64,000 nt of DNA from a virus (IMGVR_UViG_3300007151_000001:32352-96351); one strand, 5' to 3'; shown: positions 11,040 to 58,827, counted from the stretch's first letter. Notes: generated by a model not told the origin, from the letters alone. Translations and numbers: made by a program.

Positions 11040-11111
11040 TAGCCCCGACGGGAATCGAACCCGCTAGAACCGCGTCTAAAGCACGGCGTGTATCCATTGC
11101 ACCTCGGGGCC
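11040..11111 (-). tRNA. tRNA with UUA anticodon (putative ochre suppressor)
   Basis: Full cloverleaf: GGCCCCG/CGGGGCT, D-loop AATGGAT, anticodon arm CCGTG-CT-TTA-GA-CGCGG, T-arm GCGGG-TTCGATT-CCCGT; 72 nt. Confidence 0.75.
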
Positions 11112-44008: not shown

Positions 44009-46693
44009 TCAGAACGGCGCCTCCCACGCCTCGTCTTCTGCGTCATCCGTCAGTGATGCTTGCAAGATGTCCGTTTCTTTCTTGCACCAGCACCATTGCG
44101 ACTTCTTCTGGTAGTACTTCTTGACGTTCTCGAACCCGGCGTCCTGCATGTAATTGGTGAAGGCGCCGGGCGTGGGTTGGACGGACTCGTAGTCTTCCAT
44201 TTCTTGGGACAGCAACGCTTCGATTTCCGTCTTCGGCTTGCCGTCGATCAGGTCTTCCAACGTCTTCAAGGCGGCCCGGATCGGGTCTTGCACTTCTAGG
44301 GCTTTGTCCGCCGCCTCGAGAAATTCTTGCGGAATCGGCGGCGGTTCGTGGTTATACGCCCGCCATGCGCACCATACCAGCCAATGCACGATCTGCTTGA
44401 GCAGTTCCGGTTCCCCGCCTTCTTGGATTTTCCGTATCCGGTCGATCAGCGTCTTGTTGCCCCGCTTTCGCTTGGCAATCTGGGATGGCGCCATCTTCCG
44501 GTTCCAGTCGATAGTCAGTTGTCGTACTTCCACCCCTTCGTCCATGTCCTTGATCTCGAACCGGGCATTGCCCGTAATGAAGAGCAACCCCAAGAACGGC
44601 GCTTCGAACGTGTCCTTGTATTTGGTGGCCACCGACAGACTGGTGCGGCTGGTAATCTGCTTGAGCTGGTCCACGTCCACGCGGACCTTCTTCACGTCGT
44701 CGATGAGCATCAATGCCGCGTCCCGCTGCAACGCCTTGTACAGATCCGGGTAATTTTCGCTGTCGTTGTACTCGAGGGTCTTGCGGCTGGCCATAATCCC
44801 CAAATGCCCGAGGGCCGCCAGCACCGCATGCGGCAACGTGGTTTTGCCGCTGTCGGCCAACCCGACTACTTGCACATAGACCTTCATAATCTGTTTGCAC
44901 AGCCCGGCCCCGAAAAGGTACTCGAAGGTCCGCCGCACTGCCGGGATATGCATCAATTCGTCCAACACCTCTTGCCACTCGCGCAAACGCCCGTCCGGTC
45001 CCGGCAACCCCTCTTCGGGGGGAATGGCCAACTCTTCGTTCGTCAAGGGCAACGCCAAGCACCCCGTCGGAAAATGGCGGGTCGGGTCGAATTCCTCTAC
45101 GCGTAACGTCTTGTTGCGCAAGTCCACGATGCCGTTGGGCAAAGGCACGCACCAATCCGCCCGCCGCGGCGGATATTCGTTTTGGAAATGCGCTTCCAAA
45201 TGCCCGCGCAACACCACCTGTTCCGACCCTTTCGCCGTAGTTCCCAACCCATACACGGACCGTTCTTTGGGGATTTCATCGCCGTCCTTGCCTTCCCGCT
45301 TGGACTCGACATAGGACAGCGTGCCGGCATTTTGGGCATCTAACGCTTGCTTCAACGCCGGCATATATTCCATTTTGATGGCTGTCCATACCTGTTCCCA
45401 GGTCCCCTCTTCCCAATAGGATCGCCGCCGCCATGCGTCGTCTTCGTCCTTATATAATGCCCCGGCAATCCACCACTGGGCATCTTGTGCGCCCCGCCCC
45501 TGACATCGCCATCGCCCCCGAAAGAAGGTGGCGATGTCGACTGCCAGCACTGCCATCGGATTGTGCCCCCATTGATCCCAAGCCGGCGGATGCGTCGAGA
45601 CCAAGCACTCCGGGAATTTGCGGGTCTGCGCCTCGCCCGACGCGGCTTTCCGTGGCTTCGGCGCCGCCCGCTCCGTCTGCCGCAATTGGGGATCGTAGGG
45701 GATCGCGGCCTCGGCCCAAGCCTCGAGGGTCTGCCGCCGCACTGCGGGGTCCAAGACGTCGGCGATGTCGTTGGGATCGGCCCCAGCAGGACGCAAACTG
45801 ACTCGCACTAAAGCCGGGGCGCATTCGGCCAACAGCCGCTCTGCCAAATCCTCGGCGCAAGTCCGCCCAGCACCATCGGCATCCGCAAACACCGTGTGCT
45901 GCAAGCCCGCCGGCACAGGAGCCAGGTCTTGCTGACCTACGAATTTCGCGCCGCCTTGGATCGTAGTAACGAAATCGATACCCGCCAGCCGTAATACGCG
46001 GACGGCATCCACGCAGGTTTCCCCCTCGAACCAACAGACATGAGCGCCCGGCGGCAACTTCTGCAGTCTATGGATGTCGTAAGGGTAGTACGGCTGCCGA
46101 CCGCCGCGCCCGATAAACCATTGGTCACGGCCCGGCTCGTGCGCGTGGAACTGACGGCTTTCGGTCTTGGGTTCGCCGTTCTTTTTCAAGACCGGTTGCT
46201 TTTCGGCGTCTCGCCGGGCATAGCGAATGAATGCCACATAGGGGTGCCCGGCAGGATTGTGATAGAAGTGCGCGCCCAAGGGATAGCGCTGCTCTAGGTC
46301 CTGCCGCCGGCGCGGCCGTTCGTCGGGCGCTTTCTTCCGGCCACGCCCCCGGCTGTGCGCTGGGGGCGGCGGAGTCAAGCCCGTGATGTCCCAGGCGCCG
46401 CGCCAACGCTCTTGCCAAGTACAGCCGCCGCTGCTTTCGGTGAAACAGTTGAGCCAGTAGCGACCCTCGTATTCCGTCAGACTGCACGAAGCATGATCGT
46501 CCGGATGGCTGGGGTCCGTACACGACCCCGCATATCCTCGGCCGGACTGCTGGTAGCCCAAGGCTTCCGCCAAGCGTGCGAGGCTCCAGCCGTGGAATTC
46601 CCGAATGGCACGCTCGTAATTGAGACTGCCGTCGGGCAAATAGCAGTTCGGGTTAGTGGCCGATGATGGTGGGGGTTGCGGGGTAGGGGGCAC
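44009..46693 (-). CDS. Primase-helicase: Zn-binding domain + TOPRIM + D5/P4-like SF3 helicase
   Basis: C....H.D..AS...NCF....C, FEGE..V, DAD.AG, NGIVDL and GLADSGKTT Walker A. Confidence 0.85.
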   Translation of the reverse strand: MPPTPQPPPSSATNPNCYLPDGSLNYERAIREFHGWSLARLAEALGYQQSGRGYAGSCTDPSHPDDHASCSLTEYEGRYWLNCFTESSGGCTWQERWRGAWDITGLTPPPPAHSRGRGRKKAPDERPRRRQDLEQRYPLGAHFYHNPAGHPYVAFIRYARRDAEKQPVLKKNGEPKTESRQFHAHEPGRDQWFIGRGGRQPYYPYDIHRLQKLPPGAHVCWFEGETCVDAVRVLRLAGIDFVTTIQGGAKFVGQQDLAPVPAGLQHTVFADADGAGRTCAEDLAERLLAECAPALVRVSLRPAGADPNDIADVLDPAVRRQTLEAWAEAAIPYDPQLRQTERAAPKPRKAASGEAQTRKFPECLVSTHPPAWDQWGHNPMAVLAVDIATFFRGRWRCQGRGAQDAQWWIAGALYKDEDDAWRRRSYWEEGTWEQVWTAIKMEYMPALKQALDAQNAGTLSYVESKREGKDGDEIPKERSVYGLGTTAKGSEQVVLRGHLEAHFQNEYPPRRADWCVPLPNGIVDLRNKTLRVEEFDPTRHFPTGCLALPLTNEELAIPPEEGLPGPDGRLREWQEVLDELMHIPAVRRTFEYLFGAGLCKQIMKVYVQVVGLADSGKTTLPHAVLAALGHLGIMASRKTLEYNDSENYPDLYKALQRDAALMLIDDVKKVRVDVDQLKQITSRTSLSVATKYKDTFEAPFLGLLFITGNARFEIKDMDEGVEVRQLTIDWNRKMAPSQIAKRKRGNKTLIDRIRKIQEGGEPELLKQIVHWLVWCAWRAYNHEPPPIPQEFLEAADKALEVQDPIRAALKTLEDLIDGKPKTEIEALLSQEMEDYESVQPTPGAFTNYMQDAGFENVKKYYQKKSQWCWCKKETDILQASLTDDAEDEAWEAPF

Positions 46694-47413: not shown

Positions 47414-47758
47414 ATGCAACTGCCGCTGTTTCCGCCTAAGCCCCCGCCGCCGACCGAGGGGTACGAGCCGCCGGACGAAGAGCCGGCGGGCGAGTACGAA
47501 GCTTGGTGCGACGAGATGGACGCTGACGGCTTGGTGATTGCCGGGGTCTTAGCTCGATTGGCGTTGGACGCGGCGGTCCAAGCCGACGGTCTGACGATGA
47601 CGCAACTGGAAACCGCGGTCGCGGAACAATTCGGGGCGCCGGAACCGGAAGCAGACGAACCCGGCCATTACTGTATGATGAGGCGCACTCATATCGGGCG
47701 TGTGATGCACGGCATGGGCTGGCAAGTGGCGGGAGAGCGGTATCGGCCGCGCTGGTGA
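47414..47758 (+). CDS. Small acidic protein starting with a clamp-binding-like motif QLPLF
   Basis: AGGAGG RBS; MQLPLF N-terminus. Confidence 0.6.
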   Translation: MQLPLFPPKPPPPTEGYEPPDEEPAGEYEAWCDEMDADGLVIAGVLARLALDAAVQADGLTMTQLETAVAEQFGAPEPEADEPGHYCMMRRTHIGRVMHGMGWQVAGERYRPRW

Positions 47759-47775
47759 GCGCAAGGAGCATGACC

Positions 47776-48141
47776 ATGATCGAACTGACGGCGCAGGCGG
47801 CGGACCGCTTGCAACGGGTACTCGCAGAGCAAGGGAAAGCGCCGGCGACGGGATTGCGGGTGTTCGTGAAGGGCGGCGGCTGCGGCGGCTTGCAGTACGG
47901 CATGACGTTGGAAGACACGGAACGCCCCGGCGATACGCAGGCGGAACAACACGGCCTGGCCGTGTACGTGGACATGATGAGCCTGCCGCATCTGCAGGGG
48001 GCCCGGATCGATTATGCGGACTCGCTGATGGGCGGCGGGTTCCACATCGAAAACCCCAACGCGGTCAGCACGTGCGGATGCGGATCGAGTTTTCGTACGG
48101 CGGGCAGCGAGACGGGGGACGAAGGGTCGTGCGGCGGCTAG
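47776..48141 (+). CDS. HesB/IscA/ErpA A-type Fe-S cluster carrier
   Basis: LRVFVKGGGCGGLQYGM and NPNAVSTCGCGSSF motifs. Confidence 0.95.
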   Translation: MIELTAQAADRLQRVLAEQGKAPATGLRVFVKGGGCGGLQYGMTLEDTERPGDTQAEQHGLAVYVDMMSLPHLQGARIDYADSLMGGGFHIENPNAVSTCGCGSSFRTAGSETGDEGSCGG

Positions 48142-48843: not shown

Positions 48844-50199
48844 GTGCCTGCCGCCTCCAGTATAGTTGAAGACACCAAGCCTCGCACTTTACGCTTGCGC
48901 TTGTTGCCGGGCACCCGTGCCAACGGCGAATACTTGGCGGGCTTGGCTGGGGCCAATCGCGCCGTCTGGAACCACTTCGTAGCCCTGAACCAAGAACGGT
49001 CTCGTCATCACCGCAACTGGCGGGATTACCGTATCGGCCCAGAACCAGCCCCGCCGCAATACCGTCGCTATTCCATGCAAAAAGAATTCACGCAGTTGCG
49101 GCGGGAATGGCCTTGGTTGCAGAAATACAGCAGCGACGAAGTCCGATATTGCCTGAAGTATCTGGAAGACACATACAAAGCCCATTTCAAGGACCCGGAA
49201 GAAAAGGGGTGGCCGAAATTTAAAGCCAAACATTTTGCGACGCCTGCCTTCACGGTTTCTCAAGGCAAGATCCAATCTGGGTGTCTGTGGATCCCCAAAT
49301 GCGGTTGGATGCGCCTGCAAGGGGAGCGGCTGTATGCCGGCTGTCAGGTCAAGACCGTGCGGGTACGGCAAGAAGGCTCGCCCCAGAGGCCCAAGTGGTA
49401 CGCCTATGTCTGCTATGACGTTCCTGTGTCCCAACTTCGTCAGGGAGCGCAGACAGGCATCGTGGGGGTCGACCGCGGCGTTACCGATGCCCTGATGGAC
49501 AGCTGCGGCGAGGCGTATCGGATGCCGGACGTATCCCGCCTGGAAGCCAAGAAGAGACGCTACGAACGCATCAAGTCACGGCGGCGCAAAGGGTCGGCGC
49601 GCCGAAGACGTATCGTAGGTCGTCTGGCCAAGATCCATCGCAAGATACGGCGGATCCGGGATACGGCCACGCACCTACACAGTCGCCAGTTGGCGGACAA
49701 GGCGCATACCATCGTCTTCGAATATCTGAAAATCAAGCAGATGACGAAATCTGCGAAAGGCACGCAAGCCGATCCCGGCCAGAACGTCAAAGCCAAGGCC
49801 GGCCTCAATCGTGAAATTCTGGCCGCCGGATGGGGCGGGACGGTTGCCAAGACGTCGTACAAGGCGGGGCGGGTCTTGCAAGTCCCGGCTGCCTATACCA
49901 GTCAAACCTGCAGCCGTTGCGGCTGCGTAGCGAAGGAGAGTCGCCAGGGGAAACGATTTCGGTGTATCGATTGTGACTTCATGGCAGACGCCGATCAGAA
50001 TGCGTCTGTCAACATCGAGCGATTGGGAAGAGAACAATTGATCGCTCAGGGCATTCCTAGGGATGCTGTTTGGCCCATGTCGCGGGGGCCGCTGCCCAGG
50101 GAGAGGCGTTCTCGTCAGAGACCTCGACGATCTGCGGAACCAGTTGTTCAACCAGACCAACCGACCAACCTTGTCCAGCGGTCGTTATGGTTTGGCTGA
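48844..50199 (+). CDS. tnpB: CRISPR-associated TnpB-like RuvC nuclease 1 (451 aa; nascent type V)
   Basis: RuvC-I VGVDRG, RuvC-II VFEYL..KQMTKSAKG, Zn-finger SQTCSRCG...CIDC, RuvC-III ADQNASVNI; the array starts after a single base following the stop. Confidence 0.9.
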   Translation: MPAASSIVEDTKPRTLRLRLLPGTRANGEYLAGLAGANRAVWNHFVALNQERSRHHRNWRDYRIGPEPAPPQYRRYSMQKEFTQLRREWPWLQKYSSDEVRYCLKYLEDTYKAHFKDPEEKGWPKFKAKHFATPAFTVSQGKIQSGCLWIPKCGWMRLQGERLYAGCQVKTVRVRQEGSPQRPKWYAYVCYDVPVSQLRQGAQTGIVGVDRGVTDALMDSCGEAYRMPDVSRLEAKKRRYERIKSRRRKGSARRRRIVGRLAKIHRKIRRIRDTATHLHSRQLADKAHTIVFEYLKIKQMTKSAKGTQADPGQNVKAKAGLNREILAAGWGGTVAKTSYKAGRVLQVPAAYTSQTCSRCGCVAKESRQGKRFRCIDCDFMADADQNASVNIERLGREQLIAQGIPRDAVWPMSRGPLPRERRSRQRPRRSAEPVVQPDQPTNLVQRSLWFG

Positions 50200-50200
50200 A
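50078..50200 (+). ncRNA. omegaRNA/tracr-like scaffold overlapping the 3' end of nuclease 1
   Basis: GGGGCCGCTGCC...GAGG-CGT-TCTC-GTCA-GAGA-CCTC...GGAAC nested hairpin resembling TnpB 3'-end RNAs; GTCGC at 50079-50083 is complementary to the repeat end GCGAC. Confidence 0.6.
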
Positions 50201-50433
50201 CCCTCAACTCGCGCACGCGCACGAGGGCGACCGTTGCGAATACGTAATCGTCGGGCGCCGTGTAATCGCCCCTCAACTCGCGCACGCGCACGAGGGCGAC
50301 CATTTCCCCCATGATGATGTCGAGCTCGTGCGGCCCCTCAACTCGCGCACGCGCACGAGGGCGACCTGCAGATCCAGCCACTTAGACATCATGCCCGCAT
50401 CCCCTCAACTCGCGCACGCGCACGAGGGCGACC
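50201..50433 (+). CRISPR. CRISPR array 1: 4 repeats, 3 spacers
   Basis: Identical 32-nt CCCTCAACTCGCGCACGCGCACGAGGGCGACC at 50201, 50270, 50335 and 50402; unique spacers of 37, 33 and 35 nt (one less each if the preceding C belongs to the repeat). Confidence 0.95.
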
Positions 50434-50453
50434 AACTCACACAGGAGGACACC

Positions 50454-50663
50454 ATGTGTAACAACCTTTCCCAGCGCTGCGCCTCGTTGCAGGCGCTCAA
50501 CCGGCAGATCAAGGCGTCATTTCGCCTGATCTATTGGCTGACCGACAGGGTCGAATGGGCCAGTGACGACGACCATCGGAAGCTGCTCGAGAAAACGATT
50601 GCGGAGCAGCACAAACAGATCGAGAGTCTGCTGGCGGTGCAACGTCTGTTGTGGGAAGAATAG
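50454..50663 (+). CDS. Small helical protein directly after array 1
   Basis: ACACAGGAGG RBS begins a few nt after the last repeat. Confidence 0.65.
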   Translation: MCNNLSQRCASLQALNRQIKASFRLIYWLTDRVEWASDDDHRKLLEKTIAEQHKQIESLLAVQRLLWEE

Positions 50664-50823
50664 ATTCCGTTCCCTACGCGCCGTGCCCGCTCTCCTAGCG
50701 GGCACGGCGCGTAGAAGACATCACACACAGGAGTAGGATGATGACGTTGGATGTTGGACCCCCGCAGAGAGTCTTGCCGGGAGGGGGCGGCCTTGCGGGT
50801 ATCGAAAAGAGGCGGAAGCAGCG

Positions 50824-51465
50824 ATGAAGGACATCAGCATGCAGAGCGACAACCTCCGAGATTATCTGTTTACCCGTGTTCCCGACAGGGAGGGAGAGTA
50901 TGCGGTGCTGGAGTTGCGCCGCCCGCCGCCCGGCGTGGTCGGCGATCCTGGCCTATATCCTTTTCATGGCCGCGAGGTCGTAGTCGTCGGGGCGGGGCAT
51001 CCCTCGTTACACAGGATTGGCGAAGTGCATCACGGGCCGATGTGGGACGAGCACGGCGCGGAGGTGGAAATGGTCCATCTGTCGGTCTCGACCACGATCA
51101 CCATAGGTCTGGAACCTGCCCCGACGCGCCGCTTGTCGTTCTATAAGCGCCGGCGCCTGCATCACCATAAGCAGCAGTATCACCTCGAGATGGCGTGGGA
51201 CCCTTTCCCGCCCGACGTGCGGCGGAAATACGTATCGCAGAAATGGGGGACGTACTGTACGGGATTTTGCGGGGACTGGGATGTGCAACAGGGTCGGATT
51301 GCCTTGTGCACATTGCAAGCAGAACCAGCCCGACGGTGGCGGGTCTACGACATCACGAAGGCCATGCCGTTGGGCTGGCCGACGGTGATCGAAGAATTCG
51401 TGGGCGGAATGAAAGACTTGCGAGTACACATGGAGCGCACGTGCGGCGCGACCGAAATCGCATAG
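50824..51465 (+). CDS. Hypothetical protein
   Basis: 213-aa ORF in the plus-strand operon; start uncertain. Confidence 0.5.
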   Translation: MKDISMQSDNLRDYLFTRVPDREGEYAVLELRRPPPGVVGDPGLYPFHGREVVVVGAGHPSLHRIGEVHHGPMWDEHGAEVEMVHLSVSTTITIGLEPAPTRRLSFYKRRRLHHHKQQYHLEMAWDPFPPDVRRKYVSQKWGTYCTGFCGDWDVQQGRIALCTLQAEPARRWRVYDITKAMPLGWPTVIEEFVGGMKDLRVHMERTCGATEIA

Positions 51466-51474
51466 GAGCGACCG

Positions 51475-52065
51475 ATGGCCCAACTTCTCGTCACCACGCC
51501 GACGCACGGCCTCGCCCCGCGGCCGCAAGGACCGTGCGACCATCTCTGGAAGTTTCGCACGCTGGTGTACGGGATGCGTCAGACTTCCCGTCAGCTGCCG
51601 TTGCGCTGGGAACGCCAACTGCGCAGACAATACGTCTGTAGTCTCTGCGGCGGCGAAACCCTGGTCTGGGACGGCGCGGACGCGGTCGCCTTCGAGCGCA
51701 CGGTGCGGATGGCGTTGGGCGGCAAGGCGACGGCGGCGCAGGTCACGTTGCACGCGTCTCATCCGACGGTGCTGATCCACGCGCTCTTTTCGATGGGGCG
51801 GCGCCCGGCTTTTCGGGCCGGGTTGTCGTTTGCAGATCTGACGAAGGCGTTGGCGTACTACATCGGCGCCTGTGAAGCCGACGAATGGGGCGCCGACGAA
51901 CACGATCCGCGATTCGCGATCGTCAAGGAATGCTTGCCGTATGCTTACTGGCGCATGGAGACGGACACGGCAGAGACGCCGGCCCGCTTTGTGCCGGAGC
52001 GGATCGAGACGGCGGACGGCAGGATGATCCGCCCGGCGAAAATTCCCAAGGGGTATCTGCTATGA
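51475..52065 (+). CDS. Hypothetical protein with C.H...CxxC Zn motif
   Basis: AGGAG RBS. Confidence 0.55.
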   Translation: MAQLLVTTPTHGLAPRPQGPCDHLWKFRTLVYGMRQTSRQLPLRWERQLRRQYVCSLCGGETLVWDGADAVAFERTVRMALGGKATAAQVTLHASHPTVLIHALFSMGRRPAFRAGLSFADLTKALAYYIGACEADEWGADEHDPRFAIVKECLPYAYWRMETDTAETPARFVPERIETADGRMIRPAKIPKGYLL

Positions 52066-52521
52066 AAGATGGTGTTGACCTGATGGCGGGGATTGATGTC
52101 GCCGCGCTGACGGAGCGGGAAAGGGACATGTTGCAGTACCGCCTCGACAAGTATCGCCGGGAAGCCGTTGGGCATCGGGAGCGAATGCAGGGCGACATGA
52201 GTCCGTGGGCTGACGACGAAGCGACGTTCTGTGATGCGGTCGAGGCTGCGTGTGAGCAGGGCTTGGACGAAATAATGTCTGCCCGCCCTGACAATAATGA
52301 CCTAGCCCCATAGTGTATACTTTGACTACCGAGCGCGAGCTCGTAGCGGGACTCCGTCCCGCGCTCCTGTGTGGCCGCCGTCCGGGGCGCTTCGTTGCGA
52401 ACCGGGCGGCGGTTATTTTTGTGACCTCTCACCAGAAAGCGGGTCAATGCCGGATTGACGTGGAACGGATTGGCGCGGATACGCTGATGGACGACGTGCC
52501 CGGGAAGGAGGAAGCGGCAGC

Positions 52522-52995
52522 ATGAATTGGGACGAAATCGAGGAAGCCCCCACAACCGATTTGCTAACCCGCGGCGGCCCGTTAAGTGCACGGTCCGTCC
52601 AGCTGGGCAAGGCCGTGAACGAAGCCCGGTATTACGCAGAGACCGAAGCGCCGGACACGGCGGATGACGTGCAGGACATCGCAATCTTGGCAGAGCCGAT
52701 TGTGATCATGGCGAAAGAGGTGGGAATTGTCACCCTTCAGATCCCTGCTGAGCATCGAAACCGTTTCAACCGCCCGGAAACCGAATATCGCAAATGGACG
52801 CTCATCGTCCTCGGCGACATGGAGCGCGCAGCGTATGACTTGGAGGCGGCGATCTACACGAAGACGCTGCACGACATGACAGACGCTCTCGAAACGCTGC
52901 GCGACAATCTGGCTTTGGTTCTGGTGGAAGTGAAACGGGAGACCTTGAAGCACGAATTGATCGATGCCGGCGTGGATGTGTCGGATAGGACCTAG
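52522..52995 (+). CDS. Hypothetical helical protein
   Basis: AGGAGG RBS. Confidence 0.6.
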   Translation: MNWDEIEEAPTTDLLTRGGPLSARSVQLGKAVNEARYYAETEAPDTADDVQDIAILAEPIVIMAKEVGIVTLQIPAEHRNRFNRPETEYRKWTLIVLGDMERAAYDLEAAIYTKTLHDMTDALETLRDNLALVLVEVKRETLKHELIDAGVDVSDRT

Positions 52996-53017
52996 GGGTT
53001 GGTGTACAATCACAGCC

Positions 53018-53299
53018 ATGCCCCCTCTCGAACTCGTCGCCGAACACGAATACGCCTTGTTGTGGTTCGCCCTGTTCGGGTTGGCGACGGCGATGGGGCT
53101 GTTCGCCCGCTGGTCCAAGCAGCAAGTCGACAAGCACTTGCTGGACATTCAGGCGCAGCACGACGCCACGAAGACCGAACTGAAGCGGACCATTCAAACG
53201 GTCAAGCAATACCATGACGAATGCCAGCGGGAACGACGGTCCCTGAACCGCAAATACGAGTCCGTGCTGGCGCGCTTGGCGGCGATGCCGCCGGAGTGA
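53018..53299 (+). CDS. Single-TM + coiled-coil protein (holin/spanin-like)
   Basis: One hydrophobic helix then a coiled coil; TACAAT 7 nt before the ATG (leaderless). Confidence 0.5.
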   Translation: MPPLELVAEHEYALLWFALFGLATAMGLFARWSKQQVDKHLLDIQAQHDATKTELKRTIQTVKQYHDECQRERRSLNRKYESVLARLAAMPPE

Positions 53300-53506
53300 A
53301 CGATGTCGGAGCGGGTCTTCTATGTGGCTTGGACGATAGGCGTCTGCTTGCTGCTGGGCTTTGCCGTGCTGTCGTTGCTGCTGCCGGGATGACGATGTAG
53401 TATAATCTACGGCGTCGCCGTTGGTTTTCGCATTGCCGACTGCGATGTATCCTCCGCCGGCGGTTCGCCGCGAGCCGCCGGCACTCTCTTCACACAGGAG
53501 ACTCGA

Positions 53507-54088
53507 ATGGCGACTTATCCCCCCGATCATGAAGGGAACGCCTACCTCGCCGCGCACGGCGAACCCGGCGGGCCGGATTGGGACGTCTCTTGGGCGTCGG
53601 CGCCCTTACGGAAACCGGCCCCTCGGAACGACATCTTCCTCTGGCTGCATCGACAGTCTTTCTTGCTGGGATTGACCCTCGACGCCGCGGACATGCGCTA
53701 TCCCTTGGACATCGTCTGGGCTTTCGTACCGACCGCCGGCAAGGGGTTTGCGCCTGTGGTGTATCTGCGGAATGCGCCGCTGTATCCGGCGATAGAGGCG
53801 TCCCTGCCCCGCCCGAACTTCATACCGGCGCAGTTGAGTTGGCGATTGCACGACCATATCGACCTCGAGAAGTTTCGGGCCGACCTGGTACATCCCTACG
53901 AACTCGAGATCCTCGAAGACACGATGTGCGCCACACTGTACGGGGAACCGGCGGCGTACCCCAACCCCTGGCATGAATGGCCGTTTGCCGAGCGCAAGGC
54001 CAAGGCCGTGGAACGGGTCACGGCGCGCTTCGAGGCGGCGCGGGCCACGGCACAGGCCCAACCCAAGGCACAAGCCCAACTCGTCTGA
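53507..54088 (+). CDS. Hypothetical protein
   Basis: ACACAGGAG RBS; TATAAT at 53401. Confidence 0.65.
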   Translation: MATYPPDHEGNAYLAAHGEPGGPDWDVSWASAPLRKPAPRNDIFLWLHRQSFLLGLTLDAADMRYPLDIVWAFVPTAGKGFAPVVYLRNAPLYPAIEASLPRPNFIPAQLSWRLHDHIDLEKFRADLVHPYELEILEDTMCATLYGEPAAYPNPWHEWPFAERKAKAVERVTARFEAARATAQAQPKAQAQLV

Positions 54089-54343
54089 AAAACTGCATTT
54101 CCTAGGCGCGGCATTGAAGCCCTGTGTTACGATTTCCCCGCATTATCCAAAACAGGGGAGACGGCAGAAAGTAAGGTGGGGCCGCCGGCGCTCTCGGACC
54201 GAATTTCCGCCGGCGGCTCTTTTGTGTTAAAGACAGGCCAGGGCCCGCGGCATTGCGTTGCGTCGAATGCCGGGCCCTTCCCTTGTCTTCAGCACTGTGA
54301 TACAATCCATACAGGAGAGTAGCAGAACACACAGGAGACGGCA

Positions 54344-56044
54344 ATGGCGGTGGGAGCACTAGCGACAGACCTAGGACATCTTCCCCTTTTCGACTATGCC
54401 CGTAGGCAAGCGGCGGGGCAGTCCAGTATGCCGCGGGTATCGCCTGTCTACAGGCCGGTGCGCTACAGGATTTACCCGATGACTTCCGATAATGCCCGGT
54501 ACTGGGAAGAAATCGACGCGGCCCGCTGCGCCGTGCGCAACCGGTGTCGGGCTTTGCGCAAGGCTAGAGCGCGCCTGTATGCGGCTTGTAGCCAACCCGC
54601 GGACGAACAGACCGAATTGCTGCAAGACGCGGAGTTTACCCGCAAGCTGGCCTTCCTGCGTCAGCACTTGGAATTGCTTTGCGCTAGCGCGTCGGGCCGA
54701 AAATACGCAGAACAGCTGCTCGCAGTCCTGAACTGGTTTGAGGGGCACCGTACCGCTCCGGTCCCGCGCATGCCAAGCAACAAGAGACTGGACTCGTGGG
54801 TAGCGTTGTGTGCAGACTTCACAGTGTTTTACGACTGCATAATGCCGTGGCTGAAGCAGTACCCTTATGGTGCGGTGCGGTCGGTGCTGAAAGACATGGC
54901 TACCACCTACAAGAACGCATACGACGACTCCCAGCCCAATGCGCGGTTGCCGAAGTATCACGATCCCGCTGAAGATGGGAAACGGCACAAGGGCTTTACT
55001 TTGCTTGACGGTGCGAAGGTCGAAGACGGGTGGGTGTATGTCCCGGGAACCCGAGACCAGAAAGGGACCTGGCATCTATTTCGCCGGCGCGGGGACAACA
55101 AATTCGAATCGTATCCTATCGGTCCTGTGCGGGTCTGGCAGGAACGGCAACGTGGGCGCAGGCGTGCGCGGTGGTTCATTACGCTGTGGTATAAAGTGCC
55201 GTGCAACGTGCTGTACGCGGATGTCGCAGATACCGGGCTAAGGGGGTTGGATCGAAATTCCGCGGAGGGAGAGACTGCGGCTCCTTATGTAGACAGTACG
55301 GGACATGTCTGGAGTGTGCCGAATACCGAGCGCTTGGAGGAACGAAAGAAGCGCCTGCAACGCAAAGCGGCTAAACAAGAGGGCAAGAACCGCAAGACCA
55401 AGGCCGCGGGGTCACGGAATTGGCATAAGACGCAGGCAAAGATACGTTGCATCGACGCCAAGATTGCCGCGGTTTGGCATCACGCCCTGCAAGAAATGAC
55501 TACGGAGATGAAACGCAACGCTCGGTATTGGGGGATCGAAAATCTGAACTTGCTCGGGATGACTACTTCCGGGAAGGGCAGCGTGGAAGAGCCAGGGAAG
55601 AACGTCAAAGCGATTGCCGCCAAGAACCGGGGGATGAGAGCCGCCCGGTTGGGGAAAGCGCAAGACATGCTGGAATACAAGTTGCCTGCGGGGCACTTGA
55701 TCGGCGTGCATGCCGCCTATACCAGTCAGCAATGTAGCGATTGCGGGTATACGGACAAAAAGAACCGGCTGTCGCGGGCCGTCTTCCGCTGTGGAAGTTG
55801 CGGATTGGAACTGCATGCGGATTGGAATGCTGCGCGGAATATTGCGCAGCGCGCCCTGGAGCAGTTGAAGGCGGGGGACGTATCTGCCGATGATCCGCGA
55901 CATAAGGAAATAGCCAAATTGGCGGTGGCTTTACTGGAGCCGTCGATGTTGGAGGCGCGTGTCACGGCGTCTTTAGGTGGGGATGGTGTCGTGCAATCCA
56001 ACTCCGGTTGGGCAGACACCGGTGAAGCACTGAACCAAGTTTGA
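54344..56044 (+). CDS. CRISPR-associated TnpB/Cas12f-like RuvC nuclease 2 (566 aa) with expanded N-terminal REC region
   Basis: RuvC-I RGLDRN, RuvC-II WGIENL...GMT.SGKGS, Zn-finger SQQCSDCG...CGSCG, RuvC-III ADWNAARNI; phage-type ACACAGGAG RBS and TGTGATACAAT promoter. Confidence 0.9.
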   Translation: MAVGALATDLGHLPLFDYARRQAAGQSSMPRVSPVYRPVRYRIYPMTSDNARYWEEIDAARCAVRNRCRALRKARARLYAACSQPADEQTELLQDAEFTRKLAFLRQHLELLCASASGRKYAEQLLAVLNWFEGHRTAPVPRMPSNKRLDSWVALCADFTVFYDCIMPWLKQYPYGAVRSVLKDMATTYKNAYDDSQPNARLPKYHDPAEDGKRHKGFTLLDGAKVEDGWVYVPGTRDQKGTWHLFRRRGDNKFESYPIGPVRVWQERQRGRRRARWFITLWYKVPCNVLYADVADTGLRGLDRNSAEGETAAPYVDSTGHVWSVPNTERLEERKKRLQRKAAKQEGKNRKTKAAGSRNWHKTQAKIRCIDAKIAAVWHHALQEMTTEMKRNARYWGIENLNLLGMTTSGKGSVEEPGKNVKAIAAKNRGMRAARLGKAQDMLEYKLPAGHLIGVHAAYTSQQCSDCGYTDKKNRLSRAVFRCGSCGLELHADWNAARNIAQRALEQLKAGDVSADDPRHKEIAKLAVALLEPSMLEARVTASLGGDGVVQSNSGWADTGEALNQV

Positions 56045-56066
56045 ATCTCATTCCCAGAAATTGTGA
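55954..56066 (+). ncRNA. tracrRNA-like scaffold with terminal anti-repeat
   Basis: Hairpin GGTGTC...CCAAC-TCCG-GTTGG...GACACC (55985-56020); GTCAC at 55961-55965 complements the repeat end; 56044-56066 AATCTCATTCCCAGAAATTGTGA pairs with the repeat core; duplicated at 16193-16277. Confidence 0.75.
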
Positions 56067-56089
56067 AAAGTGGTTTTTGTGAGTCAAGG

Positions 56090-56630
56090 GTCACAATCAT
56101 AATTTCGATTGGGAAGTGATTGTGACCCCCAGCGCCTTCGCATTGTCTACGATGGTATCGTCACAATCATAATTTCGATTGGGAAGTGATTGTGACCAAT
56201 GCGGAAGTTGAAGACATGCCCCGTCTCGAAGTCACAATCATAATTTCGATTGGGAAGTGATTGTGACCCCCCACAGGTTGAGGAATGCGCGGGCGAGCCG
56301 TTGTCACAATCATAATTTCGATTGGGAAGTGATTGTGACCCCAGGGGTTGCACCAGATGCCCGGCCCCCGCGAGTCACAATCATAATTTCGATTGGGAAG
56401 TGATTGTGACCTGTAGTGATCGTCGTAGGTACTAGGACACACGGGGTGTCACAATCATAATTTCGATTGGGAAGTGATTGTGACCCTTCGTCTTCCACAG
56501 CGCCGTCGCGGCAGGCGTCATGTCACAATCATAATTTCGATTGGGAAGTGATTGTGACCATGCCGTGAGTAGCAGACGCTCATGTGGGTATCGTCACAAT
56601 CATAATTTCGATTGGGAAGTGATTGTGACC
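56090..56630 (+). CRISPR. CRISPR array 2: 8 repeats, 7 spacers
   Basis: Identical 38-nt GTCACAATCATAATTTCGATTGGGAAGTGATTGTGACC at 56090, 56160, 56231, 56303, 56374, 56448, 56522 and 56593; spacers of 32, 33, 34, 33, 36, 36 and 33 nt. Confidence 0.98.
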
Positions 56631-57360: not shown

Positions 57361-58827
57361 ATGCGGGGGGAACACCGCGTTCGGCTGATCCGTCTGTCGT
57401 TTGCCGACGGTGCACGCTGGTACGGGCGGGTCTATCGCGCCTATCGACTGCGCAGTTGCCTGAACCGGATCCAAGAGCAAGCCCCGGCGATAGCCGAGCG
57501 CATGGCGGCAGGCGCGATCGTCTGTCTGGAGCAGCTGGCCTGTACGACGGCGGCCCCGGCGACGGCTCTGTACTACCGCTATCTGTACTACGACCGGCGG
57601 CCCGGGCTACTCAACATCCAGCGCAATTTCGCGGAGCGGGCTGACGCCCCAGAGGTCTACTGTTCGCAGTGTGCCGCGTGGAAGCCGCGCTCTGCGTTTC
57701 GGAAGACGAAACGCAAGCGAAACGGGTTGAGCAGTCTATGTAGGGACTGTCATCAGCGCAAGTACTATCATGCGCAACCGTTGCGGCGCCGTCCCTGCTG
57801 GCGGTGCGGCAAAGAGTTCCCGGCCAAGGCAAAGAGTCCCCGGAAGTACTGCAGTGCCGAATGCCGTCGTCTGGGAGGCGCTCTGACCCGCACTGTGCAG
57901 TGTGGGGAATGCGGGGCGTCTTTCGAGACGGCGCTGCCTCGGAAATACTGTAGTCATGCCTGTGCGACGGTCGTCCAACGTCGCGCCGAACGCACATCCA
58001 AGGCGAAGAAGCGCGGGCCTCGCCCGCCGGTACGACAGTGTTTGCAGTGTGGTTCCGAGTTTGCGCCCAAGTCCAGGCGTAACGTGTACTGTTCGCAGGA
58101 CTGCTATCAGATTGTCAATCGGCAACGCTCGGCAGAGCGCAACCGGCGCAGATATGCCGCCCGGCCAGAGCGGGCTTGCCCGACATGCGGAACCGAGTTT
58201 GCGCCCTTCGGGAGGCGAGCGTACTGTTCGGAGGAATGTCGGCGGTTGGCGTTGCCGAAGGCCCCCTGCGCATTGGGTCGGGAAAAGCCGTGCTTACGAT
58301 GCGGAACGAGTTTTCTTGCCAGGACCAACCAGCGTTGGTGTTCGTCAGGTTGTCGGGAACAAGCGTTGGCGGAACGGAAGCCGCCGGCGCCTACCTACAC
58401 GTGTGCGGAATGCCAGGCGGAGTTCAAGGCCCGGCGCAAGCGGGAATGCTGTTCGCCCGCGTGCACCAAGCGTCACGTGGCCCGGCGGCGGGCCTTGGAG
58501 TACCAACGGCGGCGGGAACAATTCGCGGGGCGTCTGTGGTTGCGCCAACTAGGGCGCTGCGGTCTCGTAGGCTCCGTGAAGGGTTGTGGTTGCCAGTTGG
58601 ACAAGTACGATTTCCACATCGATCACGTCGTGCCGCGGAGTCGGGGAGGGCTGGACACGCCCGACAATCTGCAACTGCTGTGCCCCGACTGCAACCGGAA
58701 TGCGTCTTGGCTGATGGAGTCGGAACTGGCGGAGCGAGGATGGCAATACGGCTTAGCCAATCCCCCCGCACGGGGCAAGGCGGGGTTGTATACTCAGAGG
58801 GCCACGGAACGGACACAACGGGCGTGA
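57361..58827 (+). CDS. HNH endonuclease with multiple Zn-finger repeats
   Basis: Six CxxC.xxF...CSxxC units and C-terminal HIDHVVPRSRGG....NLQLLCPDCN. Confidence 0.8.
   Translation: MRGEHRVRLIRLSFADGARWYGRVYRAYRLRSCLNRIQEQAPAIAERMAAGAIVCLEQLACTTAAPATALYYRYLYYDRRPGLLNIQRNFAERADAPEVYCSQCAAWKPRSAFRKTKRKRNGLSSLCRDCHQRKYYHAQPLRRRPCWRCGKEFPAKAKSPRKYCSAECRRLGGALTRTVQCGECGASFETALPRKYCSHACATVVQRRAERTSKAKKRGPRPPVRQCLQCGSEFAPKSRRNVYCSQDCYQIVNRQRSAERNRRRYAARPERACPTCGTEFAPFGRRAYCSEECRRLALPKAPCALGREKPCLRCGTSFLARTNQRWCSSGCREQALAERKPPAPTYTCAECQAEFKARRKRECCSPACTKRHVARRRALEYQRRREQFAGRLWLRQLGRCGLVGSVKGCGCQLDKYDFHIDHVVPRSRGGLDTPDNLQLLCPDCNRNASWLMESELAERGWQYGLANPPARGKAGLYTQRATERTQRA

What the first reader, a model, noticed from the sequence alone, without database searches (positions are those of the whole stretch)
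50078..56127. Scaffold-repeat covariation between the two nuclease systems
Seen: system 1's scaffold begins TGTCGCGG (50078-50085) and its repeat ends GCGACC. System 2's scaffold has TGTCACGG (55960-55967) and its repeat ends GTGACC. GTCGC/GCGAC versus GTCAC/GTGAC is a compensatory G-C to A-U swap. Known: TnpB omegaRNA and Cas12f guide RNAs form a short pseudoknot between a 5' segment and the bases just before the guide. Inference: both arrays act in the plus orientation, each with its own nuclease, and the two may be orthogonal.
Basis: partly seen in the sequence, partly recalled or inferred. Interest (0 to 1): 0.75.

Follow-up and report, generated by a model that had tools for sequence, protein, structure and literature searches.

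The report
Pseudoknot pairing in phage TnpB arrays
A phage carries two small transposon-derived RNA-guided nucleases, each followed by a mini CRISPR array, and the five-base pairing that locks the guide RNA into shape has changed on both strands together, firmly shown for one system and plausible for the other.

Summary
TGTCGCGG (50078-50085) and TGTCACGG (55960-55967) exist, and the repeats end GCGACC and GTGACC.

The window lies in a complete 96-kb phage record. It encodes two TnpB-family nucleases, 451 aa and 566 aa. Each is followed on the + strand by an array: 4 x 33 nt and 8 x 38 nt.

System 1 is strongly supported.
- A covariance model built only from omegaRNAs of about 50%-identical Caldilineaceae transposon TnpBs hits 50066-50143 (52.9 bits, E 7.6e-10).
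- It places GUCGC exactly where those RNAs carry GGGAC, in the loop of the first hairpin. There GGGAC pairs with the last bases before the guide (GUCCC).
- The phage has recoded three of the five pairs on both strands.

System 2 is plausible but unproven.
- GUCAC sits at the same offset in an 8-nt hairpin loop. This occurs in about 1% of shuffles.
- The local fold has the same topology as the omegaRNA.
- An anti-repeat (56043-56066) ends next to GUGAC.
- Against it: the model does not detect this scaffold, the nuclease has no close relatives, and the repeat's own 5' GUCAC can pair with GUGAC instead.

Orthogonality is untested. The pseudoknot alone would discriminate in one direction only.

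This is a new variant of the known TnpB-to-CRISPR ("TranC", type V-U) kind.

The parts
48844..50199 (+). System 1 nuclease P0001, 451 aa, TnpB family. Its last ~130 nt also encode the guide-RNA scaffold.
   Evidence: NCBIfam guided_TnpB 194.8 bits (cut-off 100), Pfam OrfB_IS605 and Cas12f1-like_TNB. Aligns over its full length to ISDra2 TnpB 8h1j, 81.4 bits. About 50% identical to multi-copy Caldilineaceae TnpBs.
50066..50143 (+). System 1 omegaRNA-type scaffold core: hairpin 1, stem 2 and stem 3.
   Evidence: Model R1, built from 60 transposon omegaRNA cores with no window sequence, scores 52.9 bits, E 7.6e-10. The next best hit in the window scores 13.8 bits.
50072..50090 (+). System 1 hairpin 1: stem GGCCC/GGGCC with the 9-nt loop AUGUCGCGG.
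   Evidence: cmsearch alignment and local fold. The homologous hairpin in the relatives is predicted independently by RNAalifold and has a CG-to-GC compensatory pair in 5 of 60 rows.
50079..50083 (+). System 1 pseudoknot 5' strand GUCGC.
   Evidence: Aligns column for column with GGGAC of the relatives (A3 columns 8-12).
50145..50200 (+). Long hairpin between the scaffold core and repeat 1, at the position of the transposon right-end hairpin.
   Evidence: MFE and centroid folds. The positional equivalence is inferred from A3.
50200..50433 (+). Array 1: 4 repeats of 33 nt with spacers of 36, 32 and 34 nt. Repeat 1 abuts the stop codon. Each repeat is a small hairpin, then GCGAC, then C.
   Evidence: repeat fold -10.8 kcal/mol, z -1.33.
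50227..50231 (+). System 1 pseudoknot 3' strand GCGAC in repeat 1, at positions -6 to -2 before the guide. The same bases occur at 50296-50300, 50361-50365 and 50428-50432.
   Evidence: Read from the sequence. Perfect complement of 50079-50083.
54344..56044 (+). System 2 nuclease P0002, 566 aa, TnpB family, with an N-terminal region of ~150 aa that has no relatives.
   Evidence: guided_TnpB 109.9 bits. 31% identical to P0001. The best of 1.84 billion cluster representatives is 39% identical and none covers residues 1-117.
55953..55972 (+). System 2 candidate hairpin 1: stem AGGCGC/GCGUCU (it extends to 9-10 bp) with the 8-nt loop GUGUCACG.
   Evidence: Local MFE folds. It is also present in the cofold runs.
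55961..55965 (+). System 2 candidate pseudoknot 5' strand GUCAC. It starts at the third loop base, as in system 1 and in the transposon relatives.
   Evidence: Sequence. Geometry test: 224 of 20000 shuffles.
55976..56031 (+). System 2 stem 2 (GGUG 55976-79 with CACU 56028-31) enclosing a long stem 3, followed by GAACCAAG.
   Evidence: MFE of 55948-56045. The topology matches the consensus of the relatives. Sequence-level homology was not detected.
56043..56066 (+). System 2 anti-repeat: a degenerate inverted copy of repeat bases 8-33, starting at the stop codon.
   Evidence: Local alignment score 19-20. Reached by 16 of 2000 (45-nt leader) and 14 of 2000 (190 nt upstream) shuffles. The direct orientation is not significant.
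56090..56630 (+). Array 2: 8 identical 38-nt repeats with spacers of 32-36 nt. The repeat is itself an 11-bp hairpin.
   Evidence: -16.3 kcal/mol, z -4.47, 0 of 200 shuffles.
56122..56126 (+). System 2 candidate pseudoknot 3' strand GUGAC in repeat 1, at positions -6 to -2, followed by C.
   Evidence: Sequence.

Best explanation
The phage carries two paralogous nucleases derived from IS605-type TnpB. Each is guided by an RNA made from the 3' end of its own gene plus a downstream array of repeat-spacer units, read on the + strand.

System 1:
- The scaffold is a direct descendant of the transposon omegaRNA.
- A short hairpin presents GUCGC in its loop. This pairs with GCGAC at positions -6 to -2 of every repeat.
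- The pairing forms the pseudoknot that, in solved TnpB and Cas12 complexes, sits next to the guide.
- Repeat 1 is physically continuous with the scaffold, so scaffold plus repeat 1 plus spacer 1 is a natural single guide.
- Repeats 2-4 carry their own small hairpin and have no anti-repeat. They would have to dock mainly through this 5-bp pairing and the protein. This step is inferred.

System 2:
- The same layout is kept with GUCAC/GUGAC.
- An anti-repeat between the gene and the array can pair with bases 8-33 of the repeat. That leaves GUGAC free for the loop, an arrangement like a tracrRNA:crRNA pair. This is inferred.

Compared with the transposon relatives (GGGAC/GUCCC), both phage systems have changed pairs 2 and 3 on both strands. 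System 1 has also changed pair 4.
For: Family and context:
- Both proteins pass the TnpB family model.
- The record is a complete phage genome with terminal repeats.

Pseudoknot in the relatives:
- Of 79 fetched relatives with a C-terminal match, 69 could be parsed. All 69 have hairpin 1 with GGGNN in the loop and NNCCC at the transposon end.
- In a fixed register 44 of 69 are fully paired. By my reading, 50 of 69 are fully paired if a 1-nt slip is allowed.
- The variants co-vary: GGGAA:UUCCC in 7, GGGGA:UCCCC in 3, GGGGC:GCCCC in 2.
- On alignment A3 (70 rows) the helix is 91.7% paired against 85.8 +/- 0.9 in shuffles (0 of 500). It has 15 double-change cells against 5.5 +/- 1.8 (0 of 500).
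- The nested helices also co-vary.

System 1:
- Model R1 hits 50066-50143 at 52.9 bits and puts GUCGC on GGGAC.
- The element is conserved as RNA, not as protein. Its first base is at codon phase 2 in 63 of 74 relatives, at other phases in 11, and at phase 1 in system 1.

Geometry: in ISDra2 the pseudoknot uses -6 to -2 with -102 to -106 (PMC10097598, passages read). This is the same geometry as GCGAC-C and GUGAC-C.

System 2:
- Geometry test, 224 of 20000 shuffles.
- The MFE fold has the same topology as the relatives.
- Anti-repeat, 14-16 of 2000 shuffles.
- With the first 7 repeat bases removed, the cofold forms the anti-repeat duplex.

Relationship of the two nucleases: a sister relationship is not rejected. 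The constrained tree has log-likelihood +5.58 and p-AU 0.667.
Against: Against or weakening the system 2 reading:
- R1 finds nothing at system 2. There is no hit at E<=10 in the whole-window search. The best + strand scores are -1.4 and -2.3 bits when only 55880-56100 is searched.
- Repeat 2 folds on itself so that its own 5' GUCAC occupies GUGAC.
- With the full-length repeat, the cofold keeps that hairpin and forms no anti-repeat duplex.
- The free quick trees do not place the two nucleases together. P0002 sits on a very long branch.

Chance: TGTCRCGG is as common as expected by chance in the window, and bare 5-mer matches occur in 19% of shuffles.

Limits of the covariation in the relatives:
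- Only 2 of 5 pairs vary, and 13-14 of 70 rows are unpaired at them.
- Sliding the 3' strand by -1 gives nearly the same covariation score (0.120 against 0.123).
- The register in the relatives (-5 to -1 by my boundary call) differs by one base from the window.

System 1 has no anti-repeat, so how spacers 2-4 are used is unexplained.

There are no expression data and no spacer targets.
Confidence: 0.7

Rival explanations
1. System 2 needs no upstream partner. The 38-nt repeat is a self-contained hairpin. Its own 5' GUCAC pairs with GUGAC at -6 to -2, and this plays the structural role of the pseudoknot, as I recall for the Cas12a crRNA handle. On this view TGTCACGG in the gene is a relic of the ancestral omegaRNA loop or a chance match. 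System 1 still works as described.
For: - The repeat folds at -16.3 kcal/mol, z -4.47, with 0 of 200 shuffles folding as well.
- The cis fold and the cofold with the full repeat keep this hairpin.
- R1 does not detect a scaffold at system 2.
- PMC10097598 (legend read) states that Cas12a uses crRNA only yet has the conserved pseudoknot-like element.
Against: - An inverted partial repeat lies right upstream of the array. A self-sufficient crRNA would not need it.
- The 3' end of the gene folds into the omegaRNA topology with GUCAC at the expected loop offset.
- TnpB-sized proteins solved so far use a long scaffold (for the nearest structures).
Confidence: 0.3
2. Both complementarities are chance 5-mer matches in GC-rich DNA, and the arrays' guide RNAs do not use them.
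For: - A 5-mer complement occurs in about 19% of shuffled 190-nt upstream regions.
- TGTCRCGG occurs 11 times against 8.44 expected.
- Other 5-mer complements to the repeat end exist, for example GGUCG at 50178-50182 against CGACC (by inspection).
Against: - For system 1 the position is fixed in advance by a 52.9-bit homology. A perfect 5-bp match in one of two registers then has a probability of about 0.002-0.003 (my arithmetic).
- The homologous pairing co-varies in the relatives.
- For system 2 the geometry test gives about 1%.
Confidence: 0.05
3. In system 1 the 5' part of the scaffold acts as an anti-repeat rather than as a hairpin. GCCCAUGUCGCG (50073-50084) would pair with CGCGCACGAGGGC of the repeat, so GUCGC pairs with the repeat's middle rather than with GCGAC.
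For: MFE and cofold predictions draw this pairing: about 11 bp in three blocks, with a gain of about -3.8 kcal/mol over the separate folds.
Against: - These programs cannot draw pseudoknots.
- Hairpin 1 is conserved with a compensatory change in the relatives and is matched by R1 in the window.
- The alignment test finds no significant inverted repeat upstream of array 1. The best score is 10, reached by 1997 of 2000 shuffles.
Confidence: 0.07

Closest known systems
ISDra2 TnpB with its omegaRNA (PDB 8H1J / 8BF8; Nakagawa et al. 2023, PMC10097598, passages read)
   Same: - P0001 aligns to it over its full length (81 bits).
- The scaffold overlaps the 3' end of the gene.
- A pseudoknot joins a 5' segment to positions -6 to -2 before the guide, and -1 is left unpaired.
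- The nested stems have the same order.
   Different: - There is no transposon end and no single flanking guide. Instead there are 4 or 8 repeat-spacer units.
- It is single-copy in a phage.
- The pseudoknot letters are entirely different.
- System 1 has two extra hairpins between the core and the guide.
- System 2 has an anti-repeat.
TranC, transposon-CRISPR intermediates (Jin et al. 2025, Cell; not held, known to me only through passages in bioRxiv 10.64898/2026.03.27.714800, PMC13639567 and PMC13565253), including the phage-borne CauTranC9
   Same: - TnpB-sized nucleases with short downstream arrays and no adaptation genes.
- Guide RNA derived from the transposon right-end RNA.
- The preprint reports repeats of 32-38 bp and medians of 4.5-5 repeats for the clades it lists. 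The arrays here are 33 nt x 4 and 38 nt x 8.
- One phage example is known.
   Different: - LaTranC (9JFQ) matches P0001 only weakly (30.6 bits) and does not appear among the P0002 hits. So these are not that clade. Membership in the other numbered clades could not be tested.
- System 1 shows no anti-repeat, that is no visible split into tracrRNA and crRNA. Its first repeat is fused to the scaffold.
Cas12f (for example PDB 7C7L, 9NZQ) tracrRNA:crRNA
   Same: For system 2: a repeat:anti-repeat duplex followed by a short second pairing between the repeat's last bases and a 5' part of the tracrRNA. The PMC10097598 legend says the pseudoknot is conserved. The details of the Cas12f pairing are recalled, not checked here.
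   Different: - The NCBIfam Cas12f2 model scores 57.8 and 65 bits against a cut-off of 450.
- The proteins are closer to transposon TnpB.
Type V-U* candidate subtypes and the proposal that arrays arose by serial duplication of omegaRNA segments (Altae-Tran et al. 2023, PMC10691335, passages read)
   Same: - The array lies downstream of the nuclease, in the place of the omegaRNA.
- There is no cas1, cas2 or cas4.
- The arrays are short.
   Different: Here the continuity between an identifiable omegaRNA scaffold and the first repeat can be shown base by base against close transposon relatives. Which V-U branch, if any, contains these proteins was not testable.

Membership tests
TnpB / OMEGA RNA-guided nucleases | Protein matches the family model above its curated cut-off. 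| tested here: met
   NF040570 scores 194.8 bits (P0001) and 109.9 bits (P0002) against a cut-off of 100. Pfam TNB domain scores 53.6 and 62 bits.
TnpB / OMEGA RNA-guided nucleases | RuvC D-E-D residues and a zinc-finger CxxC pair are present. | tested here: met
   P0001 D210, E293, D384, C356, C359, C374 and C377 fall in invariant or nearly invariant columns of A1. P0002 has D, E, D and CxxC...CxxC at the aligned places in the pairwise alignment. Activity was not tested.
TnpB / OMEGA RNA-guided nucleases | An omegaRNA scaffold overlaps the 3' end of the gene and ends at the guide. | tested here: met
   System 1: R1 hit of 52.9 bits at 50066-50143. System 2: not met by the same test. Only the topology matches.
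TnpB / OMEGA RNA-guided nucleases | Lies inside an IS200/IS605-type element (a right end such as UAUAAGUCCC, multi-copy, one flanking guide). | tested here: not met
   - The conserved end motif found in 69 of 69 parsed relatives is absent.
- An array follows instead.
- The phage genome has only these two copies.
TranC / type V CRISPR-like (TnpB-derived nuclease with array) | A regular repeat-spacer array lies directly downstream on the same strand. | tested here: met
   4 x 33 nt and 8 x 38 nt repeats with unique 32-36-nt spacers.
TranC / type V CRISPR-like (TnpB-derived nuclease with array) | The guide is split into a tracrRNA with an anti-repeat and a crRNA. | tested here: inconclusive
   System 2 has a candidate anti-repeat at 56043-56066 (14-16 of 2000 shuffles), but the duplex forms in the cofold only if the repeat is trimmed. 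System 1 has none. No RNA data.
TranC / type V CRISPR-like (TnpB-derived nuclease with array) | Belongs to a described TranC clade. | not testable with these tools
   Only LaTranC is available through the PDB, and it matches weakly (30.6 bits to P0001). The defining paper and its supplements could not be read.
Cas12f | Matches the curated Cas12f model. | tested here: not met
   NF049972 Cas12f2 scores 57.8 and 65 bits against a cut-off of 450.
Guide-RNA pseudoknot of TnpB/Cas12 | A 5' scaffold segment pairs with the bases just before the guide, with covariation. | tested here: met
   - Relatives.
- System 1: three double changes at the homologous columns.
- System 2: the complementarity and geometry are met, but covariation cannot be tested for lack of relatives.

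The most novel reading that the evidence does not exclude
System 1 may be a stage earlier than the described TranC split. It would be an array of minimal modules (small hairpin + 5-nt pseudoknot strand + guide) served by one cis-encoded, still intact omegaRNA scaffold.

On this reading the 5-bp loop pairing is the only RNA-RNA link, and it decides which spacer is loaded. A second 5-bp contact, AGUUG 50141-45 with CAACU of the repeat, may help.

The phage would then hold two successive stages of the transposon-to-CRISPR transition side by side: an unsplit system 1 and a system 2 with an anti-repeat. Both would descend from one duplication and share a recoded pseudoknot.
Probability: 0.3. Interest if true: 0.75.

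Novelty: new variant of a known kind. Interest (0 to 1): 0.55.

Why it matters
[quoted passage not shown] Here the scaffold of an array-bearing nuclease can be aligned base by base to the omegaRNAs of close transposon relatives from the likely host lineage (Caldilineaceae). The junction between scaffold and first repeat is visible.
- The wholesale, pair-preserving recoding of the pseudoknot is natural evidence that this 5-bp helix is required.
- Two compact nucleases (451 and 566 aa) with different repeats in one phage offer a ready pair for testing guide-RNA specificity.
- They also allow a test of how a crRNA can be used without an anti-repeat.

Tried and rejected
- **Relatives of system 2.**
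  - Single-protein scan of viral contigs found none.
  - The repeat-2 pattern in viral contigs gave 0 matches.
  - The metagenome scan gave 4 loci at 25-51% identity over parts.
  - The word-indexed protein search gave a best non-self hit of 35% identity over 63% of the query.
  - The full HMMER scan of 1.84 billion representatives gave a best hit of 39%.
  - So covariation for system 2 could not be tested.
- **Relatives of system 1 in phages.**
  - The single-protein scan found none, and the repeat-1 pattern gave 0 matches.
  - The alignment scan gave 80 viral loci at 36% identity or less (one partial at 52%).
  - Only L132 and L161 of these had array-like repeats. L161 shows no clear 5-bp complement.
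- **Rfam.** Only a tRNA was found in the window.
- **Expression.** No sequencing run was listed, so there is no RNA holder.
- **Spacer targets.**
  - None in the phage's own genome, beyond each spacer's match to its own array position.
  - None in the 80 fetched loci.
  - None in 3 Caldilineaceae genomes, where the best hits lie outside the arrays at E >= 0.007.
  - None in 50,697 GenBank phages, best E 0.2 and 0.9.
  - Spacers were not searched in the IMG/VR viral contigs.
- **Promoter and terminator scan.** Nothing above chance near the arrays.
- **Duplex energies.** Scaffold against repeat did not discriminate. Cross-system controls were as low or lower: -20.4 and -34.0 against -28.0 and -26.2 kcal/mol.
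- **My alternative alignment.** I considered that CACGG of TGTCACGG matches the stem-2 CACGG of the relatives. I set it aside because the local MFE fold forms hairpin 1 and a different stem 2. The model cannot settle the point.
- **Failed parsing.** The first regular expression for the transposon end failed and was corrected.
- **L083.** The R1 hit on L083 is weak (10.9 bits, E 0.2), with non-standard pairs in hairpin 1.
- **Jin et al. 2025.** The paper is not held, and supplements are closed. Either may already describe systems like these.

Full report
**What is there**

The window is bases 32352-96351 of a 96,351-bp virus record with direct terminal repeats, rated complete.

Two reading frames on the + strand encode TnpB-family proteins:
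- P0001: 48844-50199, 451 aa.
- P0002: 54344-56044, 566 aa.

Family evidence:
- NCBIfam guided_TnpB scores 194.8 and 109.9 bits against a cut-off of 100.
- The Cas12f2 model scores 57.8 and 65 bits against a cut-off of 450.
- The two proteins are 31% identical over 392 aligned positions.

Each gene is followed on the same strand by a regular array:
- Array 1: four 33-nt repeats at 50200-50433, with the first repeat abutting the stop codon.
- Array 2: eight identical 38-nt repeats at 56090-56630.

The neighbouring genes I scanned include no cas1, cas2 or cas4. Of the 10 frames scanned, 3 had a Pfam match: Fe-S_biosyn, HNH and DUF5906.

**The observation**

Both 8-mers lie inside the 3' ends of the nuclease genes.

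The 8-mer pattern is not rare in this GC-rich window. It occurs 11 times against 8.44 expected. A bare 5-mer complement appears in about 19% of shuffled upstream regions. So the claim stands or falls on position.

**Relatives of system 1**

P0001 has hundreds of relatives. 410 of the 8000 scored candidates had E <= 0.001, and the best non-self hit is 53% identical.

A scan of one genome per species found 549 relatives among 600 candidate stretches. The best 80 were kept. Most are multi-copy genes in Caldilineaceae MAGs.

Downstream of the last conserved protein motif these loci share a clear omegaRNA. In order, it consists of:
- a short hairpin, GGCCC[GCGGGACAG]GGGC(U);
- a stem CACGG:CCGUG enclosing a further stem;
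- a variable hairpin;
- UAUAAGUCCC, after which the copies diverge. This marks the transposon end, and the guide follows.

**Parsing and pseudoknot in the relatives**

79 loci had a C-terminal match, and I could parse both ends in 69 of them. Ten were dropped because an anchor pattern failed: L022, L024, L029, L032, L035, L036, L042, L053, L066 and L071.

Loop pentamer and last five bases, in a fixed register:

| Loop / end | Loci |
|---|---|
| GGGAC/GUCCC | 37 |
| GGGAA/UUCCC | 7 |
| GGGCA/GCCCC | 8 |
| GGGAC/GCCCC | 6 |
| GGGAU/UUCCC | 6 |
| GGGAA/UCCCC | 3 |
| GGGAA/GUCCC | 1 |
| GGGCA/GUCCC | 1 |

- 44 of 69 are fully paired in this register.
- Reading the loops with a 1-nt slip gives GGGGA:UCCCC (3), GGGGC:GCCCC (2) and GGGGC:GUCCC (1). 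That makes 50 of 69.
- The other 19 keep four pairs.

**Formal counts**

RNAalifold on 60 distinct cores (A2) independently predicts hairpin 1, stem 2 and stem 3. It finds compensatory changes in 6 of 11 pairs.

On the full-length alignment A3 (69 relatives plus the window):
- The four helices together are 97.0% paired against 90.2% in shuffles.
- The pseudoknot alone is 91.7% paired against 85.8 +/- 0.9 (0 of 500 shuffles).
- It has 15 double-change cells against 5.5 +/- 1.8 (0 of 500).

Limits of this evidence:
- Only two of the five pairs vary.
- 13-14 of 70 rows are unpaired at those pairs.
- Sliding the partner by -1 gives almost the same covariation score (0.120 against 0.123).
- The tool warns that related sequences can beat the shuffles without any structure.

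**System 1 is a descendant of this RNA**

Model R1 was built from A2 alone, with no window sequence.
- It hits the window once with significance: 50066-50143, + strand, 52.9 bits, E 7.6e-10. The next hit scores 13.8 bits.
- The alignment keeps hairpin 1 (GGCCC/GGGCC) and stem 3.
- It keeps stem 2 through two double changes and a bulge.
- It places the loop AUGUCGCGG on GCGGGACUG, so GUCGC (50079-50083) occupies the columns of GGGAC. A3 shows the same (columns 8-12).
- Every repeat ends GCGAC-C, so the complement sits at -6 to -2.
- Against the consensus pairs G-C, G-C, G-C, A-U, C-G, the window has G-C, U-A, C-G, G-C, C-G. That is three double changes with no loss of pairing.
- With the position fixed and two registers allowed, chance is about 0.002-0.003 (my arithmetic).

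The element is kept as RNA rather than as protein. Its first base is at codon phase 2 in 63 of 74 relatives and at other phases in 11. It is at phase 1 in P0001, so the encoded peptide is unrelated.

The geometry (five bases at -6 to -2, with -1 free) is that of the ISDra2 structure: -6 to -2 with -102 to -106 (PMC10097598, section read in passages).

In the relatives my boundary puts the strand at -5 to -1. However, the next base is never G (A 44, T 18, C 7 of 69). The true boundary may therefore lie one base further on. This is an inference.

**What is odd in system 1**

- Between the core and the pseudoknot strand lie a long hairpin (50145-50200) and the repeat's own small hairpin.
- There is no anti-repeat. 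The best inverted match upstream is the 5-mer itself, and nothing nearby matches on either strand.
- Scaffold plus repeat 1 plus spacer 1 is therefore a natural single guide.
- How spacers 2-4 are used is open. I infer docking through the pseudoknot and the protein, possibly helped by AGUUG (50141-45) pairing with CAACU of the repeat, as drawn in the cofold. Either 5-mer alone could be chance.

**System 2**

P0002 has no close relative:
- The best word-indexed hit is 35% identical over 63% of the query.
- The best of 1.84 billion representatives is 39% identical. None reaches its first ~117 residues.
- Viral and metagenome scans gave nothing closer.

R1 does not detect its scaffold. The case therefore rests on anatomy:
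1. The local MFE fold of 55948-56045 gives a 9-10-bp hairpin with the 8-nt loop GUGUCACG. Next comes a stem, GGUG:CACU, enclosing a long hairpin, and then GAACCAAG. This is the order hairpin 1, stem 2 around stem 3, GAAC-CA-G seen in the relatives.
2. GUCAC starts at the third loop base, as in the relatives and in system 1. Requiring that geometry, 224 of 20000 shuffles qualify with a stem of at least 4 bp, and 39 of 20000 with at least 6 bp.
3. The hairpin is read in the same codon phase as in most relatives, and the peptide there (EARVTAS) faintly recalls their ARGTGA.
4. A degenerate inverted copy of repeat bases 8-33 lies at 56043-56066, from the stop codon onward. It reaches a score matched by only 14-16 of 2000 shuffles, and the direct orientation is not significant. 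If it pairs with the repeat, the duplex ends just before GUGAC. That leaves GUGAC for the loop, as in a tracrRNA:crRNA pair.

Evidence against:
- The repeat is an 11-bp hairpin in which its own 5' GUCAC holds GUGAC (z -4.47).
- With the whole repeat the cofold keeps that hairpin. The anti-repeat duplex appears only when the first seven bases are removed.

I put the pseudoknot reading for system 2 at about 55-60% and the self-contained hairpin at about 30%.

**Are the two systems one lineage?**

- Both share U-A and C-G at pairs 2 and 3, where all 69 relatives have G-C and G-C.
- System 2 keeps the ancestral A-U at pair 4, while system 1 has G-C.
- Quick trees do not join the two proteins. However, P0002 has a branch of about 2 changes per site.
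- The tree constrained to join them has a higher likelihood (+5.58) and is not rejected (p-AU 0.667). This does not show a clade. Long-branch attraction could also favour it.

**Orthogonality**

By the pairing rules, GUCGC can pair with GUGAC through one G.U, while GUCAC against GCGAC has an A.C mismatch. The pseudoknot alone could therefore keep the systems apart in one direction at most. The unrelated repeat bodies and the anti-repeat are more likely determinants. Nothing here tests this.

**Comparison with what is known**

- The pseudoknot of omegaRNA and Cas12 guides is established (PMC10097598, abstract and passages).
- Many independent TnpB-to-Cas12 transitions have been described, with arrays downstream and a proposed origin by serial duplication of omegaRNA segments (PMC10691335, passages).
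- TranC intermediates with a split right-end RNA were reported by Jin et al. 2025. I could not read that paper. I know it through passages in a 2026 preprint and two reviews.
- The preprint also reports a phage-borne member with 38-bp repeats.
- LaTranC matches P0001 only weakly (30.6 bits).
- I therefore file this as a new variant of a known kind. The new points are the base-by-base continuity with host-lineage transposon omegaRNAs, the recoded pseudoknot, an array with no anti-repeat fused to an intact scaffold, and two differently organised paralogues in one phage.
- The unread paper and closed supplements may already cover some of this.

**An extra example**

Metagenome contig L083 encodes a 395-aa relative of P0002 (26% identity). 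It is followed by four 29-nt hairpin repeats ending GUUUGG. CCAAAC lies in the 3' end of its gene, about 50 nt before a CUGUGAACCAGG motif. This is a 6-bp complement at the expected place. However, the predicted hairpin there has only a 5-nt loop, and the R1 hit is weak (10.9 bits, E 0.2). I count it as suggestive only.

Noticed in passing
window 7875-54337 (15 sites), e.g. 48229, 50438, 50724, 53491, 54328 on +: CACACAGGAG occurs 15 times against 0.03 expected. The + strand sites I read sit just upstream of start codons. It looks like a shared leader or extended ribosome-binding site. The strand of the sites switches between about 41 kb and 48 kb, with one exception at 52364 (-). One copy lies directly after the last repeat of array 1, and one lies 7 nt before the P0002 start.
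   Followed up: partly
window 47755-48141 (+): A phage-encoded Fe-S cluster biosynthesis (IscA/HesB-type) protein, Pfam PF01521, 70.8 bits. It is a possible auxiliary metabolic gene just upstream of system 1.
   Followed up: partly
window 57361-58827 (+) and 44009-46693 (-): A 488-aa protein with an HNH endonuclease domain lies downstream of array 2. An 894-aa protein has a borderline DUF5906 match (26.9 bits, cut-off 27.6).
   Followed up: no
L083 111-1298 and 1381-1590: A metagenome contig with a 395-aa TnpB-like gene followed by four 29-nt hairpin repeats (the last one degenerate). CCAAAC in the gene's 3' end complements the repeat end GUUUGG. It is another small TnpB-plus-array system.
   Followed up: partly
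L161 2501-3538 and 3713-3900: A 297-kb viral contig with a TnpB relative (31% identity to P0001) followed by three 36-nt repeats ending GGAGAC. The same repeat word also occurs twice upstream of the gene. I did not see a clear 5-bp complement in the scaffold.
   Followed up: partly
L003-L082, transposon right ends: Two observations on the right ends:
- In the one relative I translated through (L009), the tnpB frame runs through the whole omegaRNA, and its stop codon lies in the conserved UAUAA five bases before the transposon end.
- Across the 69 parsed relatives, the base after the end is never G (A 44, T 18, C 7).
   Followed up: partly
L020 4618-4780: An array-like repeat (spacing 72 nt, at least 3 copies) lies about 800 nt downstream of a TnpB copy in a Caldilineaceae MAG. 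It may be a host CRISPR array. Its spacers were not compared with the phage.
   Followed up: no
window 11040-11111 (-): A tRNA gene, the only Rfam match in the window.
   Followed up: no
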